Shown here piece by piece: positions 1,388 through 46,673 of a DNA stretch of 46,673 nt (position 1 is the stretch's first letter; each line of letters begins with the position of its first letter). The notes beneath the pieces were generated by a model. That model worked only from the letters and a program-made list of their open reading frames with translations, searched no databases and was not told where the DNA came from. The stretch lies in assembly GCA_905178155.1 (NCBI GenBank), contig CAJINV010000006.1:105415-152087 (forward strand), given 5' to 3'. This DNA comes from Amoebophrya sp. A120. Lineage: Eukaryota > Protista > Dinoflagellata. Position numbers and translations under genes: made by a program.

Positions 1388-1474
1388 GGTATGCATCACA
1401 GATATCATGGCTCATGCAAAACGTGCATGACAAGTCTCACAATCGTCCAGACCCAGACATTTTCGCAGTCCATA

Positions 1475-3922
1475 TGGCTGCCCTGGACGCAATGCACGGG
1501 CCACATCACCTATCATATGAAAAAAGCGTTTCCCTGTAAGGATTTTGCGAGTTTTGCATTACAAGTTCGTCACACATGACAAGGAAAACTTGCCATGCGA
1601 GGTTGCAAAGGGAAAACACAGCTAAAAATCACTTGTCTTGCATGTGTAGCAACACAAACACTTCTACGATGCATTTTCTGCATCACAAGTTCACAGTGAA
1701 ACACTTTTTTCTTGCGATATCACCTGGTTCGTCTCCACAGTGTTGCCGTTGGTCGCCGTGCGGATCAGCTTGACCTCCTCGAATTCCTTCTTCCCGGGGT
1801 TGTTGTATCAAAGTGAAAAAATAAGCCCCCACCCCATATTCTTCAAAAGACAACTTGCGTTGCTGGATTTGTGTACACAAATGAACTTTGTATTGCAGCG
1901 AATTATGCTTGTCGGTAATATATTCTAAGCCCATTTGGGTACTACGCATCCGGCTAGCAGCTGAGCATGAGAAACAAGTCTGACATAGGCGAAAACGCAT
2001 GACAAATTCGCTGCACAATGCGCCACATGGGTGCCGCTTGCCTTGCACGCAAGACAAAGCTGATTTGTGGCCACGAATCAGCATCACAAATTTCCTTTTC
2101 GATATGGGGACGCGGGGGGATTTTTCCTTACGATATGTTAGCGGCAAAGCTCATGTGGTCGGCCGGGTGCCAGTCCTGGGACCACACAATCTTGCGGTTC
2201 ATCTATAACCCGCTCAGGCATTACAATGATCTCAAACGCTACAATAGAGTCTGGATTTTGCATTGCATGACGCGCATGACACACTCGCAGAGCGTTCCGT
2301 CTTCTGCAATACAAATTTCGGCAGATTCTAGTGCGGTTTGGGACTCGAGAACTTGTCATGCGCAATCCTGTGGGAGAGTAGTAGGCTAGATCATGCACTC
2401 TTGCATTACAGATTTCCATATTCTATTGTAACCGATTTGAGTAATATTGTAACGTTTGAGCGGGTCATATCATCGACCGGGCCTTTCCCACGAACGCGCG
2501 CACGGCTTCTTCGTACTTCTGGTCCGCACCGGGGACCGCGAGGGCACCGCCTTCCAGAAAGTCGTACTGGTATCGAAAGGGAAAATCCCCCCTCCCCAAC
2601 TCAAAACGGAATTTCTGATGCTGGACTTGTGTACACAAATCAGGTTTGTATTGCAACAAGGCACTGCGGCCAGATCCCCAGGCGAGGTAGGGGCGTATGG
2701 GTCTAGTTGTTCAGCATGGCAAACGGCTCCCCTTTAGGCGCAACAGCATGACAAATCGCTTCCATAATGGGGCGGAAGCTTCTGCCCTTGTCTTCTTGCA
2801 AGACAAATGTGATTTGTGACCTCAAATCAGCAACACAAATTCTCGGAAACATTACCTTTTCGGTATGGGGAAGGGGGATTTTTCCTCTTGATAACTGGAA
2901 GTCGACGACGATAACCGCAGTGTTATCCGGAACAAAAACGTCCCCACTCCAGCGTTGTCATGCAAATGCGCAATGACAACGACAGAAATCGATTTGTAAT
3001 GCGCAGCTCCATGAAGCAGAGGCATTTCCAATCGCGCTTTGGAATTTGTAATGCTTTAAACAGGATGAGAAGCTGGCTTTCTCATCCGGCTGCCCTTGCT
3101 AAAAACAACACGGCGCTACAGATGGAAACTTGTCATGCAAAACTCCCAAAACTATAGAGATTTGTGTTGCTAGATTCCCAGCTTGACTACGGGGCGGGGA
3201 CGTTTTTGCTTAGGATAAGTGTCCGGATCCTGGAGAACCTTTTCGGCGAGCAAGACGTTGTTTGTTCCCAGCGCAGTGTTACCCCCGCCGTTGTTATCAA
3301 ATGCAAATATGTCTGGGTCTGGAAGAGTGTTAAACTTGTCATGCAGGTTTTCCATGACCCATGAGGTCCGGAATGCGGGACCTAGCATGACAGAGTCTGT
3401 GAGGTCTTTGCTATGCCTATCCTGCATGAGAAACTCGAACTCGCTCCCAACTTGGTCGAAAGTGGACAGCTTTCGGCCCTCATGCAACACAGACTTTCGC
3501 ACTATTCGGATTTAGCATGACAAGTTGCAATCTTCCAGACCCAGGCATTTTTGCAATCCATAGTTGTTGTCGTTCTGGCGACAGGCGTACACGATTCCAA
3601 CCGTTGCACCGGCAATGGCACCAAGACCGAGGAGGACGATGAGGGCAATGGCCCAGACGGGGCAACAAGACGATTTGTTTTTCATCCCAACACGACTACC
3701 ATCTTCCTGCTGCGCTACCACCACTTTATCGGAGCACGCGGGGGCGGTAGCTGCGAAGGCGTCGTGGGAAAAATGGAAATCCTCCTGCTCCTCTTCCGAC
3801 ACGAAGTCAGCATCTTGGTACGAACCAAGAAACGCATCGTCATCTGCGCCCGACGAGGGCTGCATGACGTAGTTCTCAGGAACAACGTGAGAATAAAACG
3901 TGTTGGACAAGTGACTCGACAT
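1475..3922 (-). CDS. pncA: Nicotinamidase/pyrazinamidase (isochorismatase superfamily) with N-terminal transmembrane segment; spliced, 3' part missing from the window
   Basis: Removing the elements at 3295-3562, 2924-3217, 2571-2893, 2204-2469, 1806-2135 and 1511-1719 (plus one DR each) gives ...WAIALIVLLGLGAIAGATVGIVYAC...DTAVIVVDFQYDFLEGGALAVPGAD...IVWSQDWHPADHMSFAANNPGKKEFEEV...NQVMWPVHCVQGS. These are the PncA motifs VDxQxDF/GGALAV, DWHPxxH and WPxHCVQ. The catalytic Lys/Cys half is not seen. Start codon is assumed. Confidence 0.9.
2204..2469. mobile_element. Singleton introner, TIR TATRACCCGCTCA
   Basis: DR TCATC; removal gives RSMNRKIVWSQDWHP. Confidence 0.85.
2571..2893. mobile_element. 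Introner family C (representative; about 11 copies), TIR TATCAAAAGGAAAAATCCCCCTCCCCATATC
   Basis: DR ACTGG here; closely similar to 37172-37493. Others: 1806-2135, 7822-8125, 11054-11363, 19042-19355, 20498-20830, 34130-34336, 34400-34717, 40497-40818, 41303-41796. Confidence 0.95.
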
Positions 3923-5921
3923 TTTTACTTTATTTTCTCTATATGCAGCTGATGTGACAGCACTGTATTGTTCAAAAATCTTTTCTGCTGTTGTTGTGAT
4001 GTAAAATTGCAATACGTTGTAAAAAATTCTTGCGCAGCTGCAGCAAGAACAAAGTTGTACTCTGTGACGAGGATTATATTACAGTTGCTATTTTTGTTAT
4101 AGTCGTTGATCGGATGTGGTCGTAGGCTATGAAGATTGATTTGGGGCAAAGATCTAGCTTTTTATCTAGGTTTTTAGAAGAGGTGTTCCTGTGTAAAGTT
4201 TAGCAGAGGTGGTCCTTGCAGCTACGGCAAAACTCAGCGACGTCGAGACCGGCGGGTACTTCCTACTACTACCTGGACGTAGTAGAAGTTCGTTTATTGA
4301 TGTTCATGTTCTTTACTGTGTTCTTGTACAGGACTGCCACTACATGTGATTTCATTCTTGTGATGAGCAATGGTGTCGAAATCGAAATGCAGCTTTGCCG
4401 TTGTACCGATGTTAACATTTTTCAAATTGCTGAATTTCATTTTCACGAACGGACACCGACTTGATCTACAACTTCACTTCGACTTCGACATGAGAGATAG
4501 CGGAAAAATCTCCACATCTGATTATGCCGGGGTTCGTCACGATCTTGGTTCCTACTTTTTCAGTTTTGTATAATTGGGTCACCAAAAATTTTCGGATCTG
4601 CTGCCATTGCAGTTCTAAGAAGGGCGCGATCTTCTTCTTTGATTTTTTTTACATGTTGAGGGCAGGCACCTCACGTGATCGTGCAAAAGATGTCAAGCGT
4701 TTGAACCACTGAAGGTGTCACCTTCAATTTTCGAGTTGAGCCAACTATATACTGATATACACAGATAGACACGTCGACAATCAGGGCATAAAAGCCTCCC
4801 AGTTTATTTTGCTTTGTTCATTTCTCTCTTTTAATGTTCCACTTTTTCGCTTATGGCACGAAGACGAACTTCGTTCCTCCCTGCACACTGGAACACGAGA
4901 AGAACACGATTTCCTCGTGCGAAGATACGGTGGACCAACGAAACACCAATCACTTCCAGGTCAACAGGCAAAAAATTGAGTCAGGAGTGATCTTCAACCT
5001 GTTGCTTCAGAGGAAATGCATTTTTTTTCAATATAAATTTGAGTCGCCTTCGACAAAAAATCATGTTTTCGTTTGAAAAAAGTGGCGAAATATTGGTTCT
5101 TTTGTGCTCCTTACATGAATTCGTGAATGTTCATCATGGAATTATCTGTGCAGATGTTGACCTCCTGTTTTGGGGGTCGGAGAGCCGGAAAAACATGTGA
5201 AAAATATGTTGCTTTATTTGCTTGGCAGTTTTCAAACGGTGGACAAAATCTTTTTATGATCTCCACAATACAACGCGTATACCAGCAACAATCTGAGCAT
5301 GCGTTTTCGGTAAATCTGAGCATGCATTTTCGGTATAAAATAAACCGCGTTAAGAAAGGCGTCTCTTCAAAAATTTATTCTGTATTGGTTATGGTTTTGG
5401 TAGGAAAAAAGATCAGTGTTGAAATAGGTGTGATGTTGTCAAGGGAGCGACCACAACTCGACTGTAAGTATTACTTCGTTCATTTGCACGGATAATGGTA
5501 GAGAATGAGGCACAAGCAGCAGTAGCCGCTGCTGTATCTACTTATCCTCAGAGCAGTCAGCTTTTAGAGGCATGTAAAAACGATTCATTTTAGATATCGA
5601 AAATGGAAATCAAAAAAACAAGAAAGCAAGCTATTGATAAATCGGTCAAATATAGCGGTTTTGACAGACAAAAAAAAGTGTAGAAACTGGTATAAACAAA
5701 TGCAACAGTGGGACTATAGTCGAGCTACTCCTGCAACATCACAACTTTATCTCCACCGACCGGCAACCTCGTCGGAATTAACGGAGTAGAACCAGGGAAG
5801 GAGTGACGGTCTTCTTCTTCTTGGAGGAAGAAACTACTGAACAGCGCTGCTGGTGTGGACGTCCAGACCGAATGTTGGCTATTGTTAGCACGACTACTTA
5901 CTGGTGAGGACACACATGTTT

Positions 5922-7535
5922 TTACAACTGGTCCGCGTGATTTGCTGAAAGCACCGGGTATGAGTCGTATGAGTGGGAAAAGCAGTGGAAGATGGTATCA
6001 TATCTACAAACGTCCCCACCTCATAGTCAAGCTGGGATGAACACTGCAAGAAGAAGTCCAGAAGTTTTGGGAGTCAACACGCAGGACAAGTTTTGTTCCG
6101 CTGTTTTGGAATGCAGAGTCGCAAGGACAGCCGCATCACAAATCCATCTGCTTATCGTGTTTACAGCAGTTTTACAAAAAATGCGCGAACATGAATGGAA
6201 ATGCCTATCGTGTGGATCCGCATCACGAATAGTCCTGCACTTGCAATAAATCCGCATGACAACTCTAGATCGGGGACGTTTATTTTACACACAGGATAGA
6301 TGTCGTCCGTCAAGTAACCTTTGGAGCAGTTCACGTTTGGTTCCACACGGTTTTTTATCAAATGCAAATATGTCTGGGTCTGGAAGGATCCGAACTTGTG
6401 ATGCGTGTTTCGGATCCTACAAAGATCTGTGATGCATAACGTGGAAAAGGTGCCCACTTCGGGCCATGTTGAGAGGGCATTTCTCATGGAGAATACGCAT
6501 TACCAAGGAGGGTGCAGAACCTGTGATGCTAGGCGTTGCATTCCAGACGTGGGGGAGCTTGCAAAAACTGGATGACAAATCTCGGAATCTCCCAGACCCA
6601 GACATTTTTACATTTGATATTTTTGAAGGCTGCTTCTTTCCGGGCCGGAGGAATGCGTCGAAAGATCACCCACAAGGCGTCGAGTTCGAGTTTACGCAGC
6701 TTTCGCTCCTCCTCTCGGTAATCCTCGTAAACGTACCGCAACCGCTTCTCACCGGAGGTAAGGAACGTGTAGAGCTGCACTTTGTTGATATCCTGTACGA
6801 CGTCCATTCTTGCGTACTCGACTGCTGTTCCACGTGGTGCTCTCTCCGTGTATGGTGTTCTCAACTGTTACGCTCTCAGCTGTTGCATGCTTTGTCATGC
6901 AGAACTCTCATCAGTATCTACGCCATCAAGCTGCCTCGCATGACAAATTTCCGAAGAGCTGAACAGCATCTAAATCTGTGCCAAACCTGTAATGCAAACG
7001 GCGAAATCTTCTCCCTCGCACATTTGCCATTTTTGCATTACAAATCCACGTAACAGTTGAGAATGTAACGCTTGAGAACGCCATACCGTGTGCGCTGGGT
7101 TTCCGTTGATGGAGGTGCCGCTGGATACCGTTCGGTGCCGCAACTGAGGGGTGGGGTCGTTATGGGAATCTCAAGCCTTACGCGGCTTGCTGATACATGA
7201 TTTGTGACGCAAAACAACCATGATCAACACCAGCATCCAGCACACAACCAAGAAACTACTTCGCATTACAAAGAACTTGGGCCAAACAAAAGCATGGAAT
7301 TGTTTGCCGAATTTGTAATCTGAAAGGTGCAGACACAGACTTTTGCCCCTCTTGCATGACAAACTCATCATGTACCGGCTGACATCGCTCGGACCGCTCG
7401 CATGGATTACCTTCTATCCCTTTTGCTCCTCCACGAAAGTAGGAATCCCAGGGGCATACTCTTGGACCTGAAGTAGAATTTGTGGGATCTCGTGGTCGAT
7501 TACAACTTGCAGAGCACCCCGGCAGAGTCGGTGAC
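5922..7535 (-). CDS. 3' exons of a hypothetical protein (5' end unresolved)
   Basis: Removing 6851-7085, 6356-6619 and 5996-6298 gives an open frame ...GNPAHTERAPRGTAVEYARMD...KEAAFKNRVEPNVNCSKGYLTDDIFHCF...DQL-stop (TAA 5922-5924). Upstream degenerate elements (about 7161-7458 and from 7538) are tentative. No clean frame could be carried through 7800-8600. Confidence 0.45.
6851..7085. mobile_element. Singleton introner, TIR TATGGYGTTCTCAA
   Basis: Perfect DR CCGTG; frame restored on removal. Confidence 0.8.
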
Positions 7536-8634
7536 CTTATAATTTTGTGATGCGTTGTCCTATGTGTTGTCTCTGAAAGCAGCAGAGTGCAGATTTGTGA
7601 CACGACGCCCTGATCAGGAAGGTCACGCAAAAACTTGCTGTGTTGTATCAGGTAGTAGAGACAGATCATCAATAATTTATGCAGATTTCCCGGCGCAAGG
7701 GAATGGAACTGCGACTGCCTTGGCGAGGGCAGGGGACAGGGCACCGCAGATCGCACAAGCTGGATCGTCCTCGAGTTCGCGCGGAGGCGTGGTCCACGAC
7801 TTGTTTATTTATCGATCAGTAAATCAAAAGGAAAAGTGCCCCCTTCCCATATCGAAAACGAAATTTGTGAAGCTGTATTTGAGTACACGAGTCGGCTTGT
7901 ATTGCTAGGAGGCCGCGGGTGTGGCCTCGTTTGCTGGCAATTTGTCATGCTGCTTCCCACCTCCAGCTGCCTCCTGCCATGCTGAAGATGCAAGGCTTTC
8001 CCACGACACCCAGCACTACGGTGCACATCTTTTCCCTTCTAGCACGACGAAGCTGACTTGTGGCCCCAAATCTGCATCACAGATTTCCGTTTTGATATGG
8101 GAAGGGGGGATTTTTGTTCTTGATACAGTAGCAGCCAAAAAAAAACTCTTCGGCGCACTGCGCGCGCCTTCTGAAACCCCAAACCCTTTCCGAAAATAAG
8201 AAGTCGACCCTTCCGCGCGGAGGGACGACCGGAAATTTCGGCTTCTTCTTGCGCCACAAGCGCCTGAAAGAAGCCGCCCCCTCCACCCGGAGGGGCCGGC
8301 TTCTTTCTGGGCCGCCAGCGACGGAGAAGAAACCCCCTCCACGCGGAGGGCCCGGTTTCTTCATGTTCCGAATCGCGCACGCTGCGCGCGGAATCTTCTG
8401 CGCGTTTGATGTTTTCCCGAAGAGGAGCCGCAGCTCGAGCAGTGGATTCTCACGGAGGTGGCCAGCTTTTTTATAATCCCGGCCACCTCATGAAAGCGCA
8501 GCACCCCTGCTGTGAACCATGGTTTCAGCAGGGTGTTGGCCTACTGTGTTGCAGAGTAATTATATCCGGGTCGAAAGTAGGGTGCAGAGTTGTGATACGT
8601 CCTGTGGAAGGTGGGTCAAGCAAAAAACAACGTC

Positions 8635-11600
8635 TTACGGCCGACGCGAACTGTACTCCCAGTACAACCACCAGTCGAACGGACATTCCTTATCGATTTT
8701 CTCCGTTTCTACTTGGTCCCGGAGTTGCTTCCTGGGAGCCGCGTTCTCGAATTTGCGAAATGTCTCCCGCTATCAAATGCAAAAGTGTCTGGGTCTGGAA
8801 ACTTGCGATGCTGGGTGGCGTATCATGAGGAGGCCGCAGGCGCTGGCTCAGAATGACAAGTTTCTGAGCTTCTAGGTGTTGCCTATTCTGCATGACAAAC
8901 TGCGTTTCTGCATGACAGGAAAAAAAAAATGGGGCTCTTGGGCAATGTGCATGACAAATTCAAGAGTCATGTGAGACAAGCATGACAAACTTGCATTCTT
9001 CCAGACCCAGACATTTTTGCACTTGATATCCGCCACTTGCAAAATTCGTCTGCTACTTTTCCGCCGCACTCGCTGAAAGACGGAAGATCCGTTAGCCTCT
9101 TCTTGCCCTCCAGAAAATCCGCGAAGTTCTTGTCCATTTCTTGTTTTTTCTTGTGCCGGTCAATGTCGAGGGCCAACGCAAATTCTTCCGGCTCTCCACC
9201 CTCCTATGCATGGCGAATATGTCTGGGTCTGGATAGACGCAGCGGGAATTTGTGTTGCTGTGTATTGCATGACAGAGCGATCTTTTATACGGCATCCCCT
9301 CGTCACAAACCGCATGACAAAAAATTGTCCAATGGTATTCTATGCATCAGAAATAATCAAAATCCTTGCTGTCTTCAAAAATTCGCATCACAAATCCAGA
9401 TCCAGATCGATACTTGCAGCGAATATGTACATCTTGGCTCGCAATATCTGCTGCACCACCAATTCCACCTGGTCGCGCGGCGGACGCGTTAACTTCTCTG
9501 GCTCGTTCCTCGGAATCGACGGCACCAGGGTGGGATAGAGAAAATCCGCGATGACACCATTTACGTCCTCCGGGAGACGCTTCTGGACCACGTTGTCGAA
9601 AATGTCGACCTGCGCCAACTATCAAATGTAAAAATGTCTGGGTCTGGAAGATTGCCAGGTTTGTCATGCACATTTTGCATGAATCCTGATGTCTGTGATG
9701 CATGCCCTAGCATCACAGACTTTGTGAGGGCTTCCTGATGCCTATACCGCATGACAAATGCTCTTTCCGTGTAGCAAAACTTGGACTCTCTTTGCTGCTC
9801 ATGCAATACAGATAGAATTTTTAGAGTCCAAATTCAGCATGAGAAGTTGGATTCTTCCAGACCCAGACATTTTTACACTTGATACCAACGCGCGGTCCCG
9901 CAAGAGCTTGTGGACGGTGATCGCGTTGGTGTAACCGAGGATCTGGAGCTCCGCTTCGCGTCGCACGTACACGTCGATGACTACGGCGCCGTATCGTATT
10001 TAAAAATGTCCCCACCCCAGAGTTGTCATGCAAATCTGCATGCTGAAAATGTTTCTCATAGGGAGCTGCATGAGAAGCGTCTTCCAGTCGTGTTTTAGAA
10101 TTTGTCATGCTCCAACCAGCTTGATATAGAAGATCCGTGACGTTGCTGAGCTAGCTCAAACAGCACTACAATACGAGTCCAAATTTGTCATGCAAAACAG
10201 CCGAAGCCTGTGGATTTGTCTAGCCGGGTCTCCATCTTGGCTATGGGGTGGGGACGTTTTTACATAGGATACGCCGTCTACAAAACTCTGAAGACACTGA
10301 GAGTGCAACTCTTCAAATGTACTTGAGAGTTTTGCCAGTTCATCGCCTGCCAACACAAGCCCGTCCGCCAACAGAGTGCGTAATTTGTGGTCGCGAATGT
10401 TGTATCAAGTGTAAAAATGTCAATGTCTGGGTCTGGAAACTTGTAATGCTGCGTTGGGAATAGTGAATGCTCTGTAATGCACAGCCAAGCATGAGATGAA
10501 ATATCTGTGCTTCTTTGTGTTGCGTTTTTCGCATGACAAACTGCGGTTTTGCTTGACAGGCAAAAGGGTCTCTTCTTGGACACGCATCGCAAACTTTTTA
10601 GTCATGCCAGAGAAGCATGACAAGCCTCGCAATCTTCCAGACCCAGACATTTTTGCATTTGATAAGTTGGCCACGCGCGCACGTTGGACGCGTTCGTAGA
10701 GACTGGGGTACCCGCGAAAAGCAGTGCTGGCAGATTCGTGGAAATGCCGAAGCTTATTGCAGACGTGGGTTCTCGTGGGCAGATCTACGTCACCGACGGG
10801 CTTCCTGGGATCACGGGCGGGGCGGGAGTCCAAGTACTCATCCATGAGACGGGAGGGAAAATGGGAGAAATTACGCCTCCGAACATCAACCTCCCAAACC
10901 TTCAACTTGTTTTCTACGAGTGAAGAGAGGTCTCGCTGTATCCACCGGTCGCCAGTTTTCTTGTGTGCTTCAGCTGCTTCCCTGAGCCCCTTATTCTTGT
11001 GACTGAGCGCAGCCAGAGCTACCCGCAACTTGCAGTCGTTTTTGTTCTGGGCGTATCAAAAGGAAAAATCCCCCCTCCCCATATCAAAATGGAAATTTGT
11101 AATGCTGATTTGGGGTCACAAATCATCTTTGTCTTGCCTATAGGGCAATAGGAGCCGTGTGGCGCATTCCAAAGCCAATCTGTCATGCGCTTTCGGCTAC
11201 TGCAGACCTGTTTGCCATGTGTAATTGCTAGCCTTCCGCATACCCAAACAGGCTCAGAAAATGCCGCCACGCACTTTCTGCAAGACAAACCTGATTTGTG
11301 TACTCAAATCCAGCATCAGAAACTTCGTTTTGATATGGGGAGGGGGGATTTTTCCTCAGAATAGGGCGAGGTTCGGCTGCGAGGGGTCGTACTTGTAAAC
11401 CAGGTTTTCGATGTGTTACAATGAAACATGCCCCCACCCCCGAACTTGGGAGCATTTGTATTGCAAACCTTTCCAAATGAAACATTCGCCCTCTTGCATC
11501 TATCAGCATCACAGGTTTGTTCCTATCGTGAATAGCAAAAATTTGTGTTGCAAAAGACCCTAGCAGAAGCGGCGCTTGTCATGCAAGCGATGTGATACAC

Positions 11601-23937: not shown

Positions 23938-23940
23938 CTT

Positions 23941-34300: not shown

Positions 34301-36010
34301 TTTCAGTATGGGGAGGGGAGATTTTTCCTCGCAATAGCTGCTGCTGATAGGAGAACTCGTCGTGGACACGGGTCGCCAGACTGTCCTGTTTGTACGGAGT
34401 ATCAAAAGGAAAAATCCACCTCCCCATATCGAAAACGAAACTTCTGATGCTGTATTTGAGTACACAAGTGGACTTGTAATGCTAGAAGACCAAGGGCCGC
34501 AGTGGTGGCCTCAATGGGAGGCAATTTGTCATGCTGCTTCCCACTTCCAGCTGCCTCCTGTCATGCTGAAGATGCAAAGGTTTATTCCCACGCCACTCAG
34601 CACTACAGTGTCTACAGCTTTTCCCTTCTAGCATGACAAAGCTGATTTGTGACCACAAATCTGCATCACAGATTTCCGTTTTGTTATAATTGGTAGGAGG
34701 GATTTTTCGTCCTGATACGGGGTCAAAGCGGTTTCGAGGGCTTCGCGAGTGGGGATCGGGTCATAGAGGCGGACGAAGTAGCGGACAGAGAGAGGCGAGG
34801 AAAATAAATGTTGAGCTACAGCATTTTTTTGTAGTGTTGATCCACCCGTAGGCCGTCGTTTCTGGTCCTGCAGATGATCAGGGGTCCTCTGCCTCGATAG
34901 TGGTACTTTTTCCCGCTCAGCCTCACTACTGGTCGCGCTGGTCAGGTAAAAATTTATTTCGGAACCAGCATCCTCATCGTCCGCTCTACAAGAACCGTAG
35001 CTGTGTTTACTGTCCCATGCTGAGTAAAGATGTCCCCACACCCAAGTCAAGATGGGAAATCGGCTAGACAAATCAACAAGCTTTGGTTGTTTCGCATGAC
35101 AAGTGTGCTCCTGTAGTGCAGTCCTGTTTAGCTAGTTCCGAAGCATCACAGATCTAGTATATCATGCTTATTCTAGCATTACAAATTCCAAAACACGACT
35201 AGAAAATGGATCTCATTGGGCTTCGCAAGAGAAACTTTTTTGGCATGCAGATCTGCATGACAACTCTGGGTCTGGGGTGGGGACGTTTTTACACAAAATA
35301 TCTCCGTGCGCGCTGCTCGGAGAAGGTTCAGCTGCGTTTCTTGCGGAAGGATGCTGGTGGTGTTTATGGTTCTTTGCGACGTCTTCTCGTCTCCAGTCCT
35401 GCCATGGTCCACAGCCTGCTCAAAAGCTCGGAAAAAGTTCTCGTCTTTCCAACTCCCGGAAGACGGCAAGGCGTCCGTGTTTCCGATAACCGTTTCGCCG
35501 TCCTTCAGAAACAGAATAATGTTTTCCCAAAAGCTATCAAAAGAAAAAAGCGCGTGACAGTTACACATTTGTAGTCAATTCAGCAACACAAATTTCTCTG
35601 CATGATAATGCAGAAATCCTACGGGAAAACACCTATGAAACGACGCTCCTATGCATATCCGGCATGACAGAGCTTGTCTGTCTTGCTTGGCGTGCAACAC
35701 AATGTCTGTGTAACTGTATTAACACTTTTTTCTTGCGATAAAAGCAGCGATGCCGTTTCGACGCGGTCCCGTTCTCGTCTAGCGTACTAGCAGGTGCAGC
35801 GTGAACTACCCGGCCAGCACTTCCTGCTCTGACCGCCGCCGCTACGGCTTTGCGTACTTCTTGTACCGTTGTGACCTTCGTCTCGAAAGTGTCTGCAACG
35901 GGCAGTGCCTCATCGGAAAGCGCGTTGCGAACTTTCAGGCGGAATGAAAACGGGTCTACGTTCTTTGACGGAGGCTGTTCGACATTCTTTTCTTCCAGTG
36001 CGGACTGCAT
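31360..36010 (-). CDS. BspA-type leucine-rich-repeat (DUF285) protein, paralog 1; 13 introns
   Basis: Spliced product contains HGPIRIWDLSQVEDFSNLF...FDLDISQWDVSGAKTMVGMFSGAVNFNKPIQDWDVSSVTTMDRMFFGASNFNQPLNDWNVSNVTDMSGMFMTAREFNQPLDKWDVSTVRNMASMFFQAAKFKQSLRAWDITRVEDM. This is the DUF285 25-aa repeat (FNQPLxxWDVSxVTxMxxMF). Elements removed start at 35535, 35016, 34400, 34130, 33722, 33475, 33148, 32947, 32696, 32436, 32061, 31718 and 31415. Confidence 0.9.
32696..32919. mobile_element. Introner family E (representative; 4 copies), TIR TATCGCAAGAAAAAACTGTTTCACTGTG
   Basis: DR GTCAT here. Others: 1511-1719, 21502-21722, 42213-42407. Confidence 0.9.
32947..33101. mobile_element. Introner family H (2 copies, about 155 bp)
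   Basis: DR TTACT here; closely similar copy at 36966-37121. Confidence 0.85.
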
Positions 36011-36923
36011 CTATTCTTCCATGTGTTCAATATCTAAATATCCAAGTAGACCTATTTGAAGATCTAGGTGTGGCTTATTTTCAGGAGGGTGAGAACATCA
36101 ACATATATTCTTTTCCCTTAGTCTGTCTAAGTACTACTTGCTTCCTGTGTGGGGTAAGTTTTTGACCAGCAAAGAAAAATCCTGTACTTACCACGACTAC
36201 CGAATCATCTTCACAGCTATGTAACTACGCCTGACTGCCTCAAGGCTCGCTCGGGGGCATTTTCATACGGGCCCTCTTTCTAGTTTTCGTACTAGCGCAT
36301 CAGGGGGACGGACGAGATCTGAGGGAAGGTAATGGGGGTAGCACACGTTTAAAGATACTAGTCCGCATTCTTATACCCAATATAACCAATATCATGAAAC
36401 GACCAAATCCGAAGTTGAAATGTCGGACGGACAGGAGCTGCGGACTTTGAATCGACCTCTCAACCAAAAGTTGATTTTTTGCTGTTTCAAAGCCCTTTTC
36501 TCGCACTGTATAAAAAATGAGTCCAGATTTTGGCACGAGGTTTTCTACTCAGAAAAAAAACGCAACCGAGTTTTATTTGTAGTTCCCCCACCGCAAAACA
36601 AATGCCTAAACATCAACATAAAAGAACACACATGTAGTTCACCTTAGCACTGCACGACCAGCACAACAAGGCAGCACGGAGCTTGCGCTCAGAGCGGTTG
36701 AAGGTCAAACCGCCCGAACAGTCAGTCGCGGCGATTTTTGACGGATAGATTTTCTCCGAATATCGAATTGCAGCAGGAGCCCATCGAAGTGAAAGGATCG
36801 CACAAAAGAGGCAGAAAAGTATTTTAAGAAAATGAAGCTTGTCCGCTTTGTCAACACGCGGGATCAACAGCCGCTTCTGCTTCTGTAGTCTTCAGGGACG
36901 AGAGCGCTTCAACATCGTCAACA

Positions 36924-39900
36924 TCAGCTTCTTTGATTTTTAGAAAATTCCACATCGAAATATTCTATGAATTGCAAAAGTATCGTACGTGCATAAATGC
37001 ATTGCAAATTTCCCCAGCATGAGAAATAAAATTTGTAATGCTGATTTACCGTAAGAAAAAGATTTGTAATGCATGCTGCATGCATGATTGCAGTACGAGT
37101 ACGATATTTTTGCACAGGATATACTCGCTAAACCAGGTTGGGTCTTCCTCGCGCAGTTTTTCTTCATTTGCTATCGAAACGAAAGATCCCCCCTCCCCAT
37201 ATCAAAACGGAATTTCTGATGCTGGATTGGTGTACACGAATCAGCTTTGTATTGCAGAGAGGCACTGCGGCCAGATCCCCAGGCTAGGTAGGGGCGTATG
37301 GGCCTAGTTGTTCAGCATGACAAACGGCTGACCTTTAGGCCCAACAGCATGACAAATTGCTTCCATAATGGGGCGGAAGCTTCTGCCCTTGTCTTCTTGC
37401 AAGACAGGTGTGATTTGTGACCTCAAAACAGCAGCACAAATTTTCGGAAACATACCTGTTCGATATGGGGAGGCGGGATTTTTCCTCTCAATATTTTCCC
37501 GGAACCAGTGCCACCACTCCCCGGCTATCCTGTGGAAAACCGTCCCCACCCCATAGTCAAGCTGGTAAGTCTGCAACACGAATGTTCAAGTTTTGCGAGT
37601 TGTGCATGACAAGTTCGTCCCCTCTGCAGCGTAGTGCTGGTTAGCAAGGGAAGCTGTGTGAGGAAGTCATTTTCTCATCCTGTTTACATCATTACAAGCT
37701 TCAAAACACGATTGGAAATGCCTCTCATGGAGCTGCGCATCACAAATCGATTCCTGTCATTGCACATTTGCATGGCAGCTCTGGGGTGGGGGCGTTTTTG
37801 CTCAGCATACCGGCCGCCGAGGGCAGGCCGACTGCGGACCAGTCTTGCGCGCCGCCATCGTCGAGCTGAGCTGCCTATCAAATGCAAAAATGTCTGGGTC
37901 TCGAAGATTTGTAGATTTGTCATGCATATTTTCCATGACCCATGTTGTCTGTAATGCCTAACCTGGCATCACAGATTTTTAGAGGGAATCCTGATGCCTA
38001 ATCTGCATGAGAAATGCCCTCGCCGTGTAGAACAAACTGGACTCCTTTTGCTCCTCATGCAATACAGATTTTTTTCGAATCCGAAGACAGCATCACAAGT
38101 TACAACCTTCCAGACCCAGACATTTTTGCAATCCATACTGCCTCTGGTGTCACTTCATCTTGTTGCCTCGACCCTGATATTAAAACAGTCCCGGAACTAC
38201 AAGAACTTTCATCATGCGGCCCGAAGATGTCGAAGGCCAGGGCGCCCTGCGGGGGTAATTGCCGAAAGGCGGACGCGGTTGCAAGCATCTGCCTGCAGTT
38301 GGTGCTTCCACTGACGATCCAGCTCGCGAGAGAATGGTTAAACGCCTCGGCACCATGAAATATTTCTTCCAAATTGGTTGTGATTCCAATCTATGCATTG
38401 CAAATATGTGTGGGTGTGGGAGATCGCGAGATTTGTCATGCTAGTCTGGCATGACTCTGAGCTTTGCATTGCGTGGCCGCGAAGTAGAGCTCCTCTCGCC
38501 TGTCATGCTAAGCCGCAGTTATTTCTCATGCGGAGTACGCAACTCAGAACCACGGAAAAACTTGTCATGCTTGAAAGCGTAAGCGCATTACAGTGTGCTC
38601 ACTATTCCCTTCCTTGCATCATAAGTTTCCAGACCCAGGCATATTTGCATTTGATACTACCTCCCATCTGTCCAGTGCCTGGTTGAAGCGCTTCGCGTGC
38701 TGAAACATCCGGGCCATAGAAGTCACTTCCCTTTTGCATTGCAAATATGTCTGGGTCTGAAACCTTGTGATGCTGGGTGGCGTATCATGAGGAGGCCACA
38801 AGTGCTGGCTCAGCATGACAAGTTTGTGAGCTACTTCTAGGTGTTGCCTATTCTGCATGGCAAACTGCATTTCTGCATGACAGAAAAATGGGGCTCTTGG
38901 GTGACGTGCATGACAGATTTAACAGTCATGCCAGACAAGCATGACAAACCTGCATTCTCGTCCCAGACCCAGACATATCTGCACTTGATATTCCTCACGT
39001 CCCAGCCATTCAAATCCCGGTCGAAATTAACCGCGCACGAAAACATCCCCTATCCTGAGCAAAAACGTCCCCACCCCAGAGTCAAGTTGGGAAATCTGCT
39101 ACGACAAATCAGCGAGCTTTTCTTGTTGCGCATGACAAGTTCTTTGGCGTCGTAGTGTGATTATCCTGTTGAGCTAGTAAAGTAGCATCGCAAATCTAGC
39201 ATCTCATGCTGATTGAAGCATCGCAAATTCCGAAAAACGAACTGAAATTGCTTCTCATGAGAAATATTTTCAGCATGCAGGTTTGCAAGACAACTCTGGT
39301 GTGGGGACGTTTTTACGTAGGATACCCCTTCCATGTTGGTCACCTTCGATACGTCCCACTGACGGATATCTTGGTCGTATCCTGAGTAAAAGCGTCCCCA
39401 CCCCGTAGTTGTCATGCAGATTTGCAGTCACAGAAAGATTTGTCATGCGGATCGCCATGAGAGACAATTCCAGTCGTGTTTTGGACTTTGTGATGCTGTA
39501 AACAGGATGAGCAGAAGGATTTGTGTTGCGGCTGTACTTGCTAAACTGCACTACAATACAGAGACGAACTTGTCATGCTTTACCCCCAAAACCTCTCTTC
39601 ATGTGTTGCGAGATCCCCATCTCGACTCTGGGGTGCGGACGTTTTTGCTCAGCGTAGGTCGAAAGCCAGGCAGCCGGCGAAGCAGTACTGGAGGTTGGTA
39701 ACGCGGCTGGTGTTCCACGCATCCAGGGGTTGGTTGAAGTCTTTGTTTTCGTAGAACATGAGCTCCATGGTATTCTGTGTAAAAACGTCCCCACCCCAGA
39801 GTTGTCATGCAAATGTGCAATGACAGGAAGATTTGCATTTGTAATGCGCACTTCCATGAGGGGCATTTCCAGTCGTGTTTTGGAATTTGTAATGCTGTAA

Positions 39901-42900
39901 ACAGGACGAGAAAATGGCTTTGCCATGCGGCTTTCTTTGCCAGCCAGTACTACACTGCAGATGGAAAGAACTTGTCATGCAGAGCCCCCAAAACTAGGGG
40001 ATTTGTGTTGCAGACTTCCCCTCTTGACTATGGTATGGGGACGTTTTTACATAGGATACATGGTAGTGGCGCCAGAAACATCCCACTGACTTATGTCCTC
40101 GTTGAAGCCCCTTCCGGCAAACGACGTGCGATTGTTATGCATTGCAAATATGTCTGGGTCTGGAAGATTGCAACTTGTCATGCTAAATCCGGATCATGCA
40201 AAAATTTGTGTTGCATGAGTGTCAAAAGCTGTCCACTTTCGACAAAGTTGGGAGGGAGTTTCTCATGCAGGATAGGCATGACAGAGACGTCACAGAGTCT
40301 TTCATGCTAGGTCCCGCATTGTAGACCTCATGGGTCTTGGAAAACCTGCATGACAAGTTTACATTCTTCCAGACCCAGACATATTTGCAGTTGATAATTG
40401 TGAGGCCTGGCCAAGTCGGACTGCGGATTGTGCGGCCACCCAGAGAGCAAGAGCTTCAGATCTTGAATTTTCGAAAGGTCCCAAATCCGCAGCGGTTATT
40501 GCGAGGAAAAATCCCCCCGCCTCATACCAAAACGGGACACTTCTGAAAATTTGTGATGCTGATTTGAAACCACAAATCGTCTCTGTATTGCAAGAAGGCA
40601 AATCCAAAAACCCCGCCGCGCTCTGCGGGCAATTTGTAATGCTGTATGGCCTGCGGAGGATAGGCCTGCCTTGCTAGGTGCCTACACCCAAAGGCCCCTA
40701 CTCCTGCTTTGTATCTGGTTGCAGTCTTGTACTGCAAGACAAAGCCGATTTGTGTACACAGATCCCGCATCACAGATTTCCATTTCGATATGGGGAAAAG
40801 GGATTTTTCGTTACGATACCGGGCCGTGCTTCTTTTCCACCGCACGAAGCATGGGTCGGGTGTACAGGTTGTGTCGCTTTGATATTTCCACTTCACTTTG
40901 ACTTTGCTTTCCTCCCGCACAAGAATAACTCGTTCTATTCTCGTTGTCTCGGTCAATTCTCTCCTGTACGAAACAGTGAAGACTGTACAGCGCTGCGTCA
41001 TGTGCATTGCAAATACGTCCGGGTCTGGAAGGTTGGAACTTGTCATGCTAAATCTGAATCATGTAAAGATCTGTGTAGCATGATTACCAAAAGCTGTCCA
41101 CGTGTGACCTAATCGAGGTGCACTTTCTCATGCAGAATAGGCATCATAGAACTATCACAGAATCTGTCATGCTATGTTCTACATATCACACCTCATGGGT
41201 CATGAAAAACCTGCATGACAAGTCTGGCACTCTTCCAGACCCAGACATATTTGCAGTTGATACGTCAACCTCTTCGCGGGTCTCAAAAGGCTCGAAAACT
41301 TTTATCAAATGGAAAAATCCCCCCACCCCATATCGAAAACGAAATTTGTGATGCTAAAACAACCGCACCGACATTGCCATTGTCCAGCATAGCTTTGGAG
41401 GCAAGCCTCCGCAGGCGCTGGAACGGCATAGGGTCAGAACCGCGAAAACATCGCAAGTATTTCTTCATCCCCGGGCACTTATATACTTTTCAACCTTACT
41501 TTGCGCTCACATTTCTTCACAAACGAAATTTGTGATGCTGTATTTGAGTACACAAATCGCCTTGTAATGCTAGAAGGCCAAGAGCCGCAGTTGTGGCCTC
41601 GGTTGCAGGCAATGCGTCACGCTGTTTCCCACTTCCAGTTGCTTTCTGTCATGCTGAAGATGCAAGGCTTCCCCACGCCACCCAGCACTACAGTCCGCAT
41701 TTTTTCCCTTCTAGCATGACAAAGCTGGTTTGTGACTGCAAATCTGCATCACAGATTTCCGTTTTGATATGGGGAGGGAAATTTTTCTTCTTGATAATTT
41801 TCACCAGGTACTTCATCTTGAATGCCGTCCGCAATGATGTTCCAGACCCAGGTATCCTGTGTAAAAACGTCCCCACCCCAGAGTTGTCATGCAGATTTGC
41901 CATGACAGGAACATTTGCGATGCGCGACCCCATGACAGGCATTTTCAATCGTGTTTGGGAACTTGTAATGCTGTAAACAGGATCAGAAGGTCGATTTGTG
42001 ATGCGGCGTTCCGTGCTAAGTTGCACTACCTTACGGACTGAAACTTGTCATGCGTGACTCCTAAAACTCCTAGCTTTGTGTTGCAAAATCTCCAACTTGA
42101 CTCTGGTGTGGGTACGTTTTTACTCAGGATACCAGGCATCAACCTTTCTGCGTTTGATAGGACGGCATCAAGCGACGGCGAAGACCGTTGCTGCTGCTTT
42201 TCCACTAGCTCGTATCGCAAGAAAAAACTGTTTCGTTCGTAATGCAGAAAGTGGTGTCTTGCTACACATGCAAGACATGTGCATTTCTAGGCGTGTTTTT
42301 CCTTGGGTGGCTCGCGCTCGCGGGGCAAACTTCCTTTGTGATGCAGAGCAGACTTGTGATGCAAAACTTGCAAAATCATCACAGTGAAACAGTGTTTTCG
42401 TGGGATAGCTCGTGGTATTCGGTCAAAAGGGGCAACAACTCCATTTCCCCGGTCTCTCCCATCCTATGTAAAAACATCCCCACCCCAGAGTTGTTTGTAG
42501 TGCAAATCTGCATTGTAGTCAAAATGTTTCTCATGCGGAGCCCCATGAGAAGCGTTTTCTAGTCGTGTTTTGGAATTTGTGATGCTCGAATCAGCATGAG
42601 ATGCTAGATCTGTGACGCTGCTGCACTAGATGAAACAAGACTACATTACGTTCGCAAATTTATTGTCATGCGCAACACCCGCAGCTCGTGGATTTGTCTA
42701 GCAGATTTCACATCTTGACTACGCGGTGGGGATGTTTTTACATAGGATATCTTCCTGCAGTATCAAATGCAAAAATGTCTGGGTCTGGAAGAATGCATGT
42801 TTGTCATGCTAAATCTGGATCATGCAACAATCTGTGTTGCATGAGTACCAAAAGCCGTGCATTTTTGACCAAGGTGAAAAGCAGTTTCTCATGCAGGATA

Positions 42901-44527
42901 GGCATGATAGAGCTCTCGCAGAATCTGTCATGCTAGGCGCTGCATTCCAGACCTCATGGGGCATAGAAAACCTGCATTACAAATCGCATATTCTTCCAGA
43001 CCCAGACATTTTTACAGTTGATATGCAGGTATTCCTGGTCGTCGCCATCCAAGGGGTATCAAATGCAAAAATGTCTGGGTCTGGAAAGAACTTGTGATGC
43101 AAGTCTGCGACGTTTGGGCGCACTGGAGTACACAACCACGCATGACAATTTTTCGAGCTGCTGTGTGTTGCGTACTTAATGTTAATCCGCATGACAAATT
43201 GCGTTTTTGCATGGCAGGCAAGACCACGCGCGGCTCTACCTCGTGCCAATGCACAGTCACAGACCTGCTCAGAGTTGTCATGCCAGACAAGCATCACAGA
43301 TCTTGCACTCTTCCAGAATATCGCAGATATGATATTTGCACTCGATAAGGGGTCGTCATACTCAAACAGCAGTTGGATATTTTCCCAAAACAATGATCTT
43401 CTAGCAGGAAGTCGTTTTGTAGCACCTTCTACCTTGTGGTTTTCGTCTGCACGAGGACTCGATGCACTTTCGGAAATTTTTTGATTCAGTGGTACCGCAC
43501 GGTCAACAAGAACATCGGCATCCTTATGTCGCGGATCATCCCTCTGCCTCATCAACGCATCGCAGATCGCGGCTTTCAGATCCTTCACCCGGGGGGGTTG
43601 TGGTGCTGGCGCGTGTGGTGCAAGTGCAACAGCCACAGCAGCAGCATTTTTTCCCTCGCTGCTTGTGAACCAGGAGGACGGAGACGGACCACTGCATAAT
43701 TCTTTCCTCCAAAGCAGTTCCGTTCCGCCATGAAAAAGCAACGGATCTCCGGTGAGTGCGTTCACAACAGCGATTTGTAGGGTGAGATTCTCCTGCTCGT
43801 GGTTCTTGTGGGATGAGTTGTTTTTTGGGTTCAGTATTATAGTGAAAAATGCTCCCACCTCCCCAGCACTTGCCAGCATTTGTACTGCAAACCTTTCCAA
43901 TGGAAACATTCACTCTCTTGCATATCTCAGCATCACAAATTTTCCATGCTGAATAGCTCAAATTTGTGTTGCAAAGGAGCCCAAAAGCAGGCGGATCTGT
44001 TATGCAAGATTCTGCGTCACAAAGGAGCCCCTTGCGTGCCTAGATTCTGCATCACAAAGGCTCGCAGTCCTTTCATGCAAGACAAAAAGCTTTCATTTGG
44101 AAACTTTGCATGAGAAACATTTGCAACTTCCGGGGTGGGCGAATTTTTCACTGTAATATTCGACATCTCTGGTCGTTGTACTCCTCCGGTATCATCTACT
44201 CCCACCTCGTATCAAATGCAAAGGTGTCTGGGTCTGGAAGATTCTAAACTTGTAATGCTGACTCTGGATTGTAAAAAAATTTGGATTGCATGACCAGCAA
44301 AAGGACTCCAGTTTGTGCTACGTAGAGAGGGCATTTCTCATGCGGTAGAGGCATCACAAAGTCCTCTAAAAATCTGTGATGCTAGGGCATGCATCACAGA
44401 CATCATGGGTCAGTCAAAATATGCATGACAAACCTGGCAATCTTCCAGACCCAGACATTTTTGCAGTTGATACCTCGGCGGTCGCAGGATACTGCTGCAG
44501 CGCATCGGCTATTTCCGAAGTCAACAT
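36924..44527 (-). CDS. BspA-type leucine-rich-repeat (DUF285) protein, paralog 2; 20 introns
   Basis: Continuous frame MLTSEIADALQQYPATAE...FWENIQLL...KHGPLRIWDLSKIQDL...FNEDISQWDVSGATTMELMFYENKDFNQPLDAWNTSRVTNLQYCFAGCLAFDQDIRQWDVSKVTNMEGMFSCAVNFDRDLNGWDVRKVTSMARMFQHAKRFNQALDRWEV...NQRS-stop, after removing 20 elements between 36966 and 44472. Confidence 0.9.
41853..42131. mobile_element. Introner family B (representative; about 15 copies), TIR TATCCTGTGTAAAAACGTCCCCACCCC
   Basis: DR CCAGG here. Others: 2924-3217, 5996-6298, 9992-10271, 12395-12667, 13565-13885, 25824-26102, 31718-31996, 32061-32387, 35016-35300, 37526-37809, 39051-39324, 39378-39656, 39771-40058, 42460-42749. Confidence 0.95.
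43835..44158. mobile_element. Introner family G (2 copies), TIR TATTAYAGTGAAAAAT
   Basis: Relative at 11414-11721 shares gcatttgtaytgcaaacctttccaa. Removal of either copy restores the reading frame. Confidence 0.85.
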
Positions 44528-44932
44528 CGTCTCACTTTAAATCGCCACAATGTTGTTGAGCAGGAAGAAAAGTAGAGGCGGTCTGGTAATCAACCATTCA
44601 TCTACTACTTTCAGCGATCAGGATGAAAAATCTTTTCATCGGCGGATGATCCTGTTATAGCGCGTAGGAATGAGTTCACTTGTGGTATGTGCCTATTTTC
44701 TCCGCAGCGCTGTTTTTCTGGAGAGGACAGAAAGGCATTCGACTAGCCATGAAGTTGTGTAGTGCTGTAAGTTTTTCCTTTCATGATTTGGGACTAGATC
44801 ATATGTAATGTGCAAGAGCGGGCAATAAATCATTGGAAGAAGACTGCGAAGGCCTAATATTACATGAAAAAGCGATGCAGTATATTTTCTTTTTGTGCAG
44901 GTCCTTCTGGCAAGGTCGCGCCCAGGTGCGTG

Positions 44933-46090
44933 GGGGTGGTTCTTTGGTGCCTACAACATACAATTTTACGTTCTTTGGTGCATACAACATGCGCCCAGTA
45001 GCCTGGGCGCGCTGAAATCGCAAAAAAAGTGGCATCTTTTTCCTTGGTCCGACGGAAGGCGCAAAAAAAAACAAAAAATCCTGCGCCGACCGGGCAGTTG
45101 AACAGTCGGGAAGCAGGGCGGGTGCGGAGCTGTGCTGCGCACCTGCCTGGCCTACGGCCGCTTGCCTAAAAAAAGCCCACTGGCGCCCCACCGCTTTTTC
45201 ATTTTTCCCCCTCATACAAATTCCGCTTGGCCCCTAGCTACACCCTCGGGTGCGGCCGCTGGGCCTGTCGACGGCCTACACAGGGCGCAACTCGTGCTGC
45301 CGTCCGCGTAGAGGAGACAAGCAACAGACACCGGGGGCGGACTGCGGACCCCTCCGTCTGCACGAAGACAGGGCGCAGACGACGGCGCGCCACAAGGGCC
45401 TGCGCTCCGTCCGGACAGCAATAAAGATGCCGGCGTCGGAGCGCGAAAAACCTACGAACCTTCGGCAGCCACTAAGCCCGTAGGGCGCACGCAGCTGAGC
45501 AGGCCTGCGAAGCGCCACACCCACAAAAGCCGGGGCAAGCGACGGCCCAGAACTTACGCGCCGGCCCGCCTGCTGCAAAAATTTTAGTGCTGCCTCGGGA
45601 AGAAGGCTGGCGCCCCAGAACATGGGCCGCCCTTGCTGCTGTCTTCGCCATGCTGTCTTGCACAACTTTTTGAAGGATGCGCGCGGGTCGGAAAATGCAC
45701 AAGAACTTCGTCGGCAGGCGGCGCAGCGCCCGATTACAGACCAGCACCAAGCTGGCCGCCTTGCTGCGCGAGGTGCAGGTACGTAAACTCGCCGGCGTCG
45801 ACGTCGCAATACCCACGCACCTCATCCTTCTGCTCGTCATCGAGAGCAAATCCGCACATTGCCTCGACGGCGTCTAACACTGTGCGCTGCATCTCGAAGT
45901 AGTCCACACGCACCAGCCGCTGCATCTGGTCATCTGCCCTGTCGTTTGCGTCCCCCAAATACCGGGACGAGCGGCGAATCAACCAGGACTGCATGTGCGT
46001 CCTGAGTTAATTCCATTTTTTTTACTTTTAGCGCCGCGTGCTTCTGAGTTAAGGGGTGGCTCTTTGGTGCCTACAACATACAATTTTACG
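44933..46090. repeat. 38-bp direct repeats (44933-44970 and 46053-46090) bracketing a GC-rich, introner-free 1.1-kb segment; possible mobile element
   Basis: ggggtggYtctttggtgcctacaacatacaattttacg occurs twice with 1 mismatch, plus a partial third copy at 44972-44990. Confidence 0.6.
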
Positions 46091-46563
46091 CACCGTATGG
46101 GTGCCTCCACCCGATGCGGTTCCTGGAACCGGATTGTCACTGGCGTAGGTGCCGCTGTACTCCTGGTACAGCTGTCTCAAGTTTTGCAAACCGATCTTGG
46201 CTTCATCATTCCCCGCGAAGGTTTTCTCGTGCACCATCCCGTAGAGCTCCCGTTGAATATGAGAGTGCACAACTCCCCCTCGTCCCCTCCATTTGTCATG
46301 CAAAATATCAAATCCGCATCTTGCCTCTAGGCACAGTTCGCATGAGAAATAATTTCGGAGCCTCGAACAACAGTACTACAGAAGTCCGTGTGCATATTTG
46401 TCATGCAGAAGCCACATTTCTGTCGTTGCTTGTGTTGCATGCTGTTCATGCAATACAAATGAGGGGGAGGGGGGTTGTGCACTGTCATATTGAAATTTGC
46501 TGATGTACTTCTCTAAATCCCTCTTTTCCTCCTCCGTGTGCTTTATTGTGTCCTGCTGGTGCT
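46049..46563 (-). CDS. 3' exons of a hypothetical protein entering from the window end
   Basis: Removing 46258-46489 plus one TTGAA copy joins KRDLEKYISKFQ to RELYGMVHEKTF in frame. A family-A element starts at 46564. Confidence 0.6.
46258..46489. mobile_element. Introner family F (2 copies), TIR TATGAGAGTGCACAAC-C-tract
   Basis: DR TTGAA here; inverted relative at 12704-12952. Confidence 0.85.
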
Positions 46564-46673
46564 TATGAACTGCAAATATCTCTGGATGTCTGGAAACTTG
46601 TGATGCAAGAAAGGAAATAGTGAGCACACTGTCATGCGCCCCCTAGCATGACAAGTTTTTCCGTAGTTCAGAG

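What the first reader, a model, noticed from the sequence alone, without database searches (positions are those of the whole stretch)
1511..46660. Unrelated families all carry arrays of one motif, TGTNATGC / GCATNACA
Seen: (T)TGTCATGC, TGTGATGC, TGTAATGC, TCTCATGC and their reverse complements occur several times in each well-preserved element, typically every 20-40 bp and often as head-to-head pairs (e.g. tgtgatgc-tagggcat-gcatcaca at 17504-17527). This holds across families with no other visible similarity. The motif is scarce in exons and intergenic DNA. Inference: a shared cis-code, either binding sites for one transposase or host protein, or short stems that fold the intron RNA. Its presence in both orientations would explain orientation-independent removal. 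This is the best candidate here for an undescribed component.
Basis: partly seen in the sequence, partly recalled or inferred. Interest (0 to 1): 0.85.

Follow-up and report, generated by a model that had tools for sequence, protein, structure and literature searches.

The report
Spaced protein-binding code inside transposon introns
Dozens of small transposon-derived introns with otherwise unalignable interiors all carry the same conserved 8-letter motif, very often as same-direction pairs 31-33 bases apart, which likely are DNA docking sites for the still-unidentified enzyme that copies these elements and would serve as bait to find it.

Summary
The motif is real. The window holds 74 TAT…ATA inverted-repeat elements with 5-bp target duplications, matching published Amoebophrya A120-type introners. 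RNA skips them as element+5 nt (20 of 20 joints), while a DNA-like run keeps them. TGTNATGC/GCATNACA occurs 231 times inside elements (11.75/kb) and 10 times outside (0.37/kb); shuffles give 5.9. Its core diverges 0.14 against 0.34 for spacers and 0.36 for its N position. RNA stems are not supported: inverted copies are no more complementary than chance, and one family has strong sites in one orientation yet is spliced either way round. Constraint falls mainly on variants shared between copies, and 7 of 28 spliced copies lack the pair. So the motif is most likely a double-stranded DNA site needed for propagation (transposase or cofactor), not the splicing signal. No transposase was found and no binding was shown. 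The families share a terminal signature, so they are not unrelated. I found the motif in no paper searched.

The parts
3295..44472 (.). Family A, 27 elements of 236-291 bp, ends TATCAAATGYAAAAATGTCTGGGTCTGGAA. Starts: 3295, 6356, 8771, 9620, 10403, 15496, 16995, 17340, 18183, 18689, 19456, 19818, 21171, 21787, 22357, 28772, 31415, 33148, 33722, 37876, 38392, 38733, 40136, 41001, 42761, 43057, 44210. 23 of 27 have a 31-33 bp direct pair.
2924..42749 (.). Family B, 15 elements of 273-327 bp, ends TATCCTGWGTAAAAACGTCCCCAC. Starts: 2924, 5996, 9992, 12395, 13565, 25824, 31718, 32061, 35016, 37526, 39051, 39378, 39771, 41853, 42460. Strong sites nearly all in one orientation; both insertion orientations are spliced (2924 and 31718).
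1806..41796 (.). Family C, 11 elements of 207-494 bp, ends TATCAAAAGGAAAAATCCCCC. Starts: 1806, 2571, 7822, 11054, 19042, 20498, 34130, 34400, 37172, 40497, 41303. 11 of 11 have a 31-33 bp pair.
1511..42407 (.). Family D, 9 elements of 195-226 bp. Starts: 1511, 20232, 21502, 26152, 32436, 32696, 33475, 35535, 42213. Divergent 17/35-bp arrangements are common; 3 of 9 have a 31-33 pair.
2204..46489 (.). Minor families and singletons: E 11414-11721, 43835-44158; F 12704-12952, 46258-46489 (2204-2469 and 6851-7085 join F with more data); G 32947-33101, 36966-37121; 23941-24101; 28412-28720; 9205-9412 and 14544-14705 (short, with family-A-like ends).
9662..9717 (+). Exemplar module in family A: forward site 9662-9669, second forward site 9694-9701 (32 bp on), reverse site 9710-9717 (48 bp from the first).
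41885..42084 (+). Exemplar family B array: six same-orientation sites at 41885, 41916, 41964, 41997, 42046, 42077, forming three pairs at 31, 33 and 31 bp.
17504..17527 (.).
860..1474 (.). Family-A-like interior and right end without a left end in the window; carries motif copies at 878, 967, 1393, 1425.
7190..7560 (.). Motif copies at 7198, 7263, 7354, 7541 with no recognisable termini; probably decayed elements (inference).
46565..46673 (.). Family-A-like element cut off by the window end; motif copies at 46599, 46630, 46646.

Best explanation
The motif aaaYY-TGT(C/G/A)(A/T)TGC is a conserved, spacing-constrained site shared by all these spliced TAT…ATA transposon-introns, and it is likely bound on double-stranded DNA by the protein that mobilises them (a shared integrase-like transposase or its cofactor). 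Shown: enrichment, conservation, the 31-33 bp same-orientation pair, indifference to strand, removal from RNA as element+5 nt in one register. Inferred: a protomer pair or oligomer binds two sites three helical turns apart (same DNA face) and helps assemble the end-pairing complex, like the subterminal repeats of pogo/Tc1, hAT and CACTA elements. In elements of 110-330 bp such sites fill the whole interior. Non-autonomous families that keep or rebuild the sites get copied, and once inserted a copy's sites mutate almost freely. Splicing is inferred to rely on the terminal inverted-repeat hairpin, with cuts 1 nt before TAT and 4 nt after ATA.
For: Core mismatch is 0.144 against spacer 0.34 and N position 0.36, with terminal repeats at 0.187; motif columns were defined on a third sequence, 53 of 74 window elements. 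Direct 31-33 pairs: mean 9.0 of 13 window families against null 1.6, max 6 of 2000; 19 of 29 clusters against null 2.6, max 9 of 1000; 103 of 158 non-family-A elements that the search pattern did not select. Inner cores carry 0.37 singleton and 0.12 shared alleles per site, spacers 0.48 and 0.42 (odds ratio 2.7, p=4e-5, 134 of 398 elements in 7 subfamilies), which is expected if selection acts on copies that spread. Family B is spliced with sites all sense (31718, 35016) or all antisense (2924). A GT-AG intron (14900-15102) has no site. All families share TAT-S-N6-AAAAA ends and a 5-bp duplication. PMC12130899 lists A120 fam38 (about 808 bp, integrase-like ORFs) with '5-bp TSD, TA/TA termini'. 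Precedent: Lemi1 binds Emigrant MITE subterminal repeats cooperatively and depending on arrangement (PMC1636448).
Against: No transposase or autonomous element was found in the window or in 166 loci. PMC7789003 reports no transposase in A120 and argues against transposase-mediated mobilisation. There is no 10.5-bp periodicity once the 31-33 pairs are removed (z 0.2). Indels are not depleted between paired sites (20 in 259 sites against 65 in 712, p=0.62; shared only 2 against 11, p=0.53). Singleton changes in cores are still somewhat depleted (0.018 against 0.025, p=0.003), and redundancy of 4-6 sites could hide a splicing role. Five of the seven subfamilies tested and the sixth small one are family A, so the test is mostly one family. 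The motif is not a clear copy of the terminal repeat except in families A and G. No binding was measured.
Confidence: 0.6

Rival explanations
1. A host DNA-binding protein reads the paired sites in either orientation and marks the element for removal during transcription, standing in for the U1 snRNA that is reported missing.
For: Strand-indifferent and shared by all families; absent from the one canonical intron checked; residual depletion of singleton changes in cores; PMC7789003 reports no U1 and no A120 transposase; all 28 spliced copies examined keep at least 2 profile sites.
Against: Constraint is far stronger on shared than on singleton variants; 7 of 28 spliced copies lack the pair and one has no strict motif; the cut register follows the terminal repeats.
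Confidence: 0.2
2. The copies act in RNA, as short stems that compact the intron or as single-stranded sites for an RNA-binding protein.
For: Predicted motif-motif pairing is 0.27-0.53 in families A, C, D and G, and motif bases are paired somewhat more than spacer bases (0.71 against 0.59).
Against: N-position complementarity is at or below chance for most inverted classes (51 of 185; 78 of 241 outermost; 7 of 30) and near chance for the rest (44 of 97, 17 of 37, 28 of 65; chance 0.39). Bases inside convergent arms are 0.22-0.31 complementary. Family B motif-motif pairing is 0.04. The dominant unit is a direct pair, which cannot form a stem. Both strands are spliced.
Confidence: 0.08
3. The motif is a functionless relic of an ancestral unit of about 32 bp, duplicated and inverted while the families diversified.
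For: Families share ends and probably ancestry; no indel depletion between paired sites.
Against: Seven core positions are conserved while the N position and spacers are not; spacers between paired sites are unalignable across families; shared variants are purged from cores.
Confidence: 0.05
4. The sites recruit a host chromatin or silencing protein that protects or packages the elements, unrelated to transposition chemistry or to splicing.
For: DNA-level, strand-indifferent and same-face spacing.
Against: The motif is rare in non-element DNA (0.25-0.37/kb), so it is not a general host site; selection on spreading copies points to mobility.
Confidence: 0.07

Closest known systems
Amoebophrya A120 introner elements (Farhat et al. 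2021, PMC7789003; Gozashti et al. 2025, PMC12130899)
   Same: Inverted repeats starting TAT + 7 nt + at least 3 A, 5-bp direct repeats, about 150-330 bp, non-canonical removal from RNA, many families; lengths match listed families (149, 209, 252-262, 278, 305-321 bp).
   Different: The passages, section and supplement text that I saw describe only the ends. They mention no shared internal motif, no 31-33 bp pairing and no single cut register, and call the splice sites variable.
Subterminal transposase-binding repeats of MITEs and TIR transposons (Emigrant/Lemi1, PMC1636448; Sleeping Beauty, hAT, CACTA as cited there)
   Same: Short repeated motif in both orientations inside a non-autonomous element, with arrangement predicted to matter.
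   Different: Here one motif spans at least 11 families with unalignable interiors and different inner terminal repeats, fills the whole element, is not simply half of the terminal repeat, and no binding protein is known.
IS3EU/GingerRoot DNA transposons (PMC10045372)
   Same: TA..TA termini; integrase-related transposase lineage.
   Different: Duplication is usually 6 bp there; here it is 5 bp (42 of 74 exact at 5 bp, 0 of 74 at 6 bp). No transposase is available to compare.

Membership tests
Amoebophrya A120-type introner | Inverted repeat starting TAT, seven looser bases, then 3 or more A | tested here: met
   Cluster-weighted end profile TAT-S-N6-AAAAA (the element finder itself favoured TAT ends); definition in PMC7789003
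Amoebophrya A120-type introner | 3-5 nt direct repeat at the borders | tested here: met
   5-bp repeat: 42 of 74 exact, 21 with one mismatch
Amoebophrya A120-type introner | Removed from RNA, present in DNA, non-canonical boundaries | tested here: met
   20 of 20 listed element joints skip element+5 nt; one joint also in 400 raw RNA-Seq reads (X9); run X5 contigs run unbroken through elements. X1/X2/X4 are RNA by guess only.
Amoebophrya A120-type introner | Host organism is Amoebophrya | tested here: inconclusive
   One exon search found no homologue; genus inferred only from element anatomy
Subterminal transposase-binding repeat | Short motif repeated inside the ends of TIR elements and conserved above spacers | tested here: met
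Subterminal transposase-binding repeat | Bound by the cognate transposase | not testable with these tools
   No transposase sequence in hand; needs a binding assay
Subterminal transposase-binding repeat | Also present in the autonomous partner | tested here: inconclusive
   No autonomous element found in window or 166 loci; fam38 sequence not in the supplement text searched
IS3EU/GingerRoot | TA..TA termini | tested here: met
   definition
IS3EU/GingerRoot | Target duplication usually 6 bp | tested here: not met
   0 of 74 exact 6-bp repeats
IS3EU/GingerRoot | IS3/IS481-related DDE transposase | not testable with these tools
   Elements are non-coding; no partner found
Conserved RNA stem element | Complementarity at variable positions of paired copies | tested here: not met
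   no Rfam match in the window

The most novel reading that the evidence does not exclude
The paired sites are an intron-definition code read on DNA: a host protein, possibly a domesticated transposase, binds them in either orientation and licenses scarless, hairpin-registered excision from the nascent RNA in a lineage that has lost U1, so one code serves both mobility and splicing.
Probability: 0.15. Interest if true: 0.9.

Novelty: new variant of a known kind. Interest (0 to 1): 0.58.

Why it matters
How Amoebophrya's tens of thousands of non-canonical introns move and how they are spliced are both open; the genome paper found no transposase in A120 and no U1 snRNA. One motif with one spacing across families argues for a single trans-acting protein behind what was counted as many families. 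It supplies a defined bait and a spacing control to identify that protein. It separates two signals, ends for splicing and interior for spread, that can be tested apart. It also gives a marker for recognising decayed elements.

Tried and rejected
No whole genome is held for this window. Two pattern scans of viral contigs found nothing. Search for long elements with matching ends found only family-A copies with unrelated inserts and no long ORF (longest stop-free stretch 137 aa). A general 10.5-bp lattice was considered and rejected: the signal disappears without the 31-33 pairs. Indel depletion between paired sites was not significant in two versions. Rfam gave no match. One exon searched against longer proteins gave no hit. 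No listed holder of the stretch is on record as RNA, and X10 barely covered 1300-21200. Earlier-finding look-ups were empty. One literature search returned nothing. A resemblance of YTTGTNATGC(A/T)AAT to the mammalian Sox-Oct composite site, and of its parts to PUF and RBFOX elements, is recalled from memory, untested, and not used as evidence.
Full report
What the window is. It is eukaryotic DNA crowded with short elements. An end-pairing scan found 69 elements and five more were added by hand from a relaxed scan, giving 74 elements and 19,659 bp. They begin TAT and end ATA, with 25-30 bp inverted repeats and a 5-bp flanking repeat (42 of 74 exact, 21 with one mismatch, none exact at 6 bp). 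Removing each element plus 5 nt in a script restores long minus-strand frames of 317, 446, 626, 650, 1011 and 1097 codons; three of twelve frames scanned, all from two of these genes, hit Pfam DUF285. This anatomy matches the A120 introners of PMC7789003 (passages). The genus is inferred from that match only; one homologue search found nothing.

They are introns. Contigs of runs X1, X2 and X4 (RNA by guess) skip 13 elements of one gene, and raw RNA-Seq reads of X9 show the joint 46252-46490 in 400 reads. Six more joints appear, where run X5 instead gives contigs that run unbroken through elements. All 20 listed element joints skip exactly element+5 nt, and the mismatched duplications allow one register only: the cut falls 1 nt before TAT and 4 nt after ATA on the transcript. 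Both tables were truncated (86 and 166 joints not shown). Eight further elements are read as spliced from piece boundaries.

The observation. The strict motif has 231 hits inside elements and 10 outside; shuffles give 5.9. The profile extends to aaaYY-TGT(C/G/A)(A/T)TGC, with T almost excluded at the variable position. A metagenome scan with a family-A end plus motif gave 169 stretches; 166 loci were loaded and yielded 324 distinct elements, 310 with a strict copy. A few low-scoring, motif-free calls among them may be false elements and were kept. Family A (166) was selected by the pattern. The 158 bystanders were not: 145 have a strict copy and 152 have two or more profile sites. The 80 listed contigs come from one assembly and window elements match them at a median 84% (max 96.5%), so this is more of the same element population, not an independent lineage. 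Outside element-like DNA in those loci the density is 0.25/kb against 10.5/kb inside.

Same-orientation pairs peak at 31, 32 and 33 bp (37, 31, 24 pairs in the window; 206, 94, 58 in the second set). The pair is present in 59 of 74 window elements and 103 of 158 bystanders and in every one of the 11 multi-member clusters. Random placement gives 1.6 of 13 families against 9.0 observed and 2.6 of 29 clusters against 19. The 13 and 29 overstate independence because several singletons have ends like the large families. Elements of only 109-122 bp consist of two ends and one pair. The pair is asymmetric: the first site has the A-rich 5' flank and ATGC, the second more often TTGC. Weaker preferences are convergent 15-16 and 45-49 bp and divergent 17 and 35 bp. 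Against over-reading: there is no wider 10.5-bp periodicity, and indels are not measurably depleted between paired sites.

Selection. With motif columns defined on a third sequence, pairwise mismatch is 0.144 in the seven core positions, 0.36 at the N position, 0.34 in spacers and 0.187 in the terminal repeats (53 of 74 window elements). In seven subfamilies (134 of 398 elements, six of them family A), inner cores have near-spacer rates of singleton alleles (0.37 against 0.48 per site) but far fewer shared alleles (0.12 against 0.42; p=4e-5). That is the pattern expected if mutated copies stop spreading. It does not exclude a redundant splicing role.

RNA or DNA. Inverted copies are not complementary at the variable position beyond chance, and the bases inside convergent arms do not pair. 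Family B carries strong sites in one orientation (28 of 33) with predicted motif-motif pairing of 0.04, while terminal repeats pair at 0.84 in all families. Family B is spliced with its sites all sense or all antisense. Seven of 28 spliced copies lack the pair and one has no strict motif, though all keep at least two profile sites. A canonical GT-AG intron at 14900-15102 has none (n=1). A double-stranded DNA site read by a protein fits these results best; 31.5 bp is three turns of B-DNA (established knowledge).

Mechanism. I commit, at 0.6, to sites for the shared mobilising protein. All families share TAT-S-N6-AAAAA ends and a 5-bp duplication, which points to one transposase lineage, while masked interiors do not align across families (best 31 bits; low power for the shortest families). 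PMC12130899 describes an A120 family with integrase-like ORFs and lists it with 5-bp duplication and TA/TA ends (passages; Dataset S7 rows 1-41 of 58 seen). PMC1636448 gives the precedent of arrangement-dependent binding to MITE subterminal repeats (passages). Against: I found no autonomous element, PMC7789003 found no A120 transposase (section 16 read in full), and binding is untested. The elements work like IS3EU/GingerRoot-type non-autonomous elements but fail the 6-bp criterion of PMC10045372 (passages), so I do not file them there.

Novelty. The elements are known. Searches found no paper that describes the motif in these elements. The two introner papers have no occurrence of it in main text or in the supplement text searched (two files of PMC12130899 not searched). 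PMC6482013 has one occurrence of GCATGACA that I did not open. Figures S19-S25 of PMC7789003, the GitHub consensus files of PMC12130899 and Roy et al. 2023 (Curr Biol; seen only as a reference) were not visible and could show the motif. PMC9860276 and PMC11282704 were seen as listings only; bioRxiv 2024.09.05.611473 as passages, which report canonical introns in that strain. Verdict: a real, selected and apparently undescribed internal code in a known class of elements; a new variant of subterminal binding repeats; interest 0.58.

Noticed in passing
window, 20 RNA joints between 1504 and 46490: Every joint removes element+5 nt in a single staggered register (1 nt before TAT, 4 nt after ATA on the transcript), even where the duplication has mismatches, restoring the pre-insertion length exactly. 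The genome paper calls these sites variable.
   Followed up: yes
window 1-1474: A family-A right end at 1474 has no left partner in the window; RNA contigs continue from 1475 into sequence not in the window, suggesting a long intron that includes the AGCAAAGCGAAAA-type satellite at 1-480.
   Followed up: partly
window 44934-44975 and 46053-46090: A direct repeat of about 35-40 bp lies 1.1 kb apart around a GC-rich stretch; X9 reads have loose ends at 46110 and 46564. Possibly another mobile element.
   Followed up: no
window 30598-30850: A tandem duplication of about 117 bp with motif-like sites at 30661 and 30778, outside any TAT…ATA element.
   Followed up: no
window 31363-36010 and 36927-44536: Two neighbouring DUF285-repeat genes on the minus strand hold 13 and 20 elements.
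   Followed up: partly
window 1475-3922: The restored frame looks like a nicotinamidase/isochorismatase-family protein (recalled motifs; single exons gave no Pfam hit); it is highly covered in X1 and X2.
   Followed up: partly
L002:3985-5875 and L011:3988-5240: Family-A copies interrupted by 1.0-1.6 kb unrelated inserts without the motif, possibly LTR remnants.
   Followed up: partly
L028:5823-5931, L054:1008-1119, L077:1911-2032: Minimal elements of 109-122 bp made of two ends and one direct pair; natural minimal substrates.
   Followed up: partly
window 41303-41796: A 494-bp family-C element with an extra segment of about 185 bp inside its left arm.
   Followed up: no
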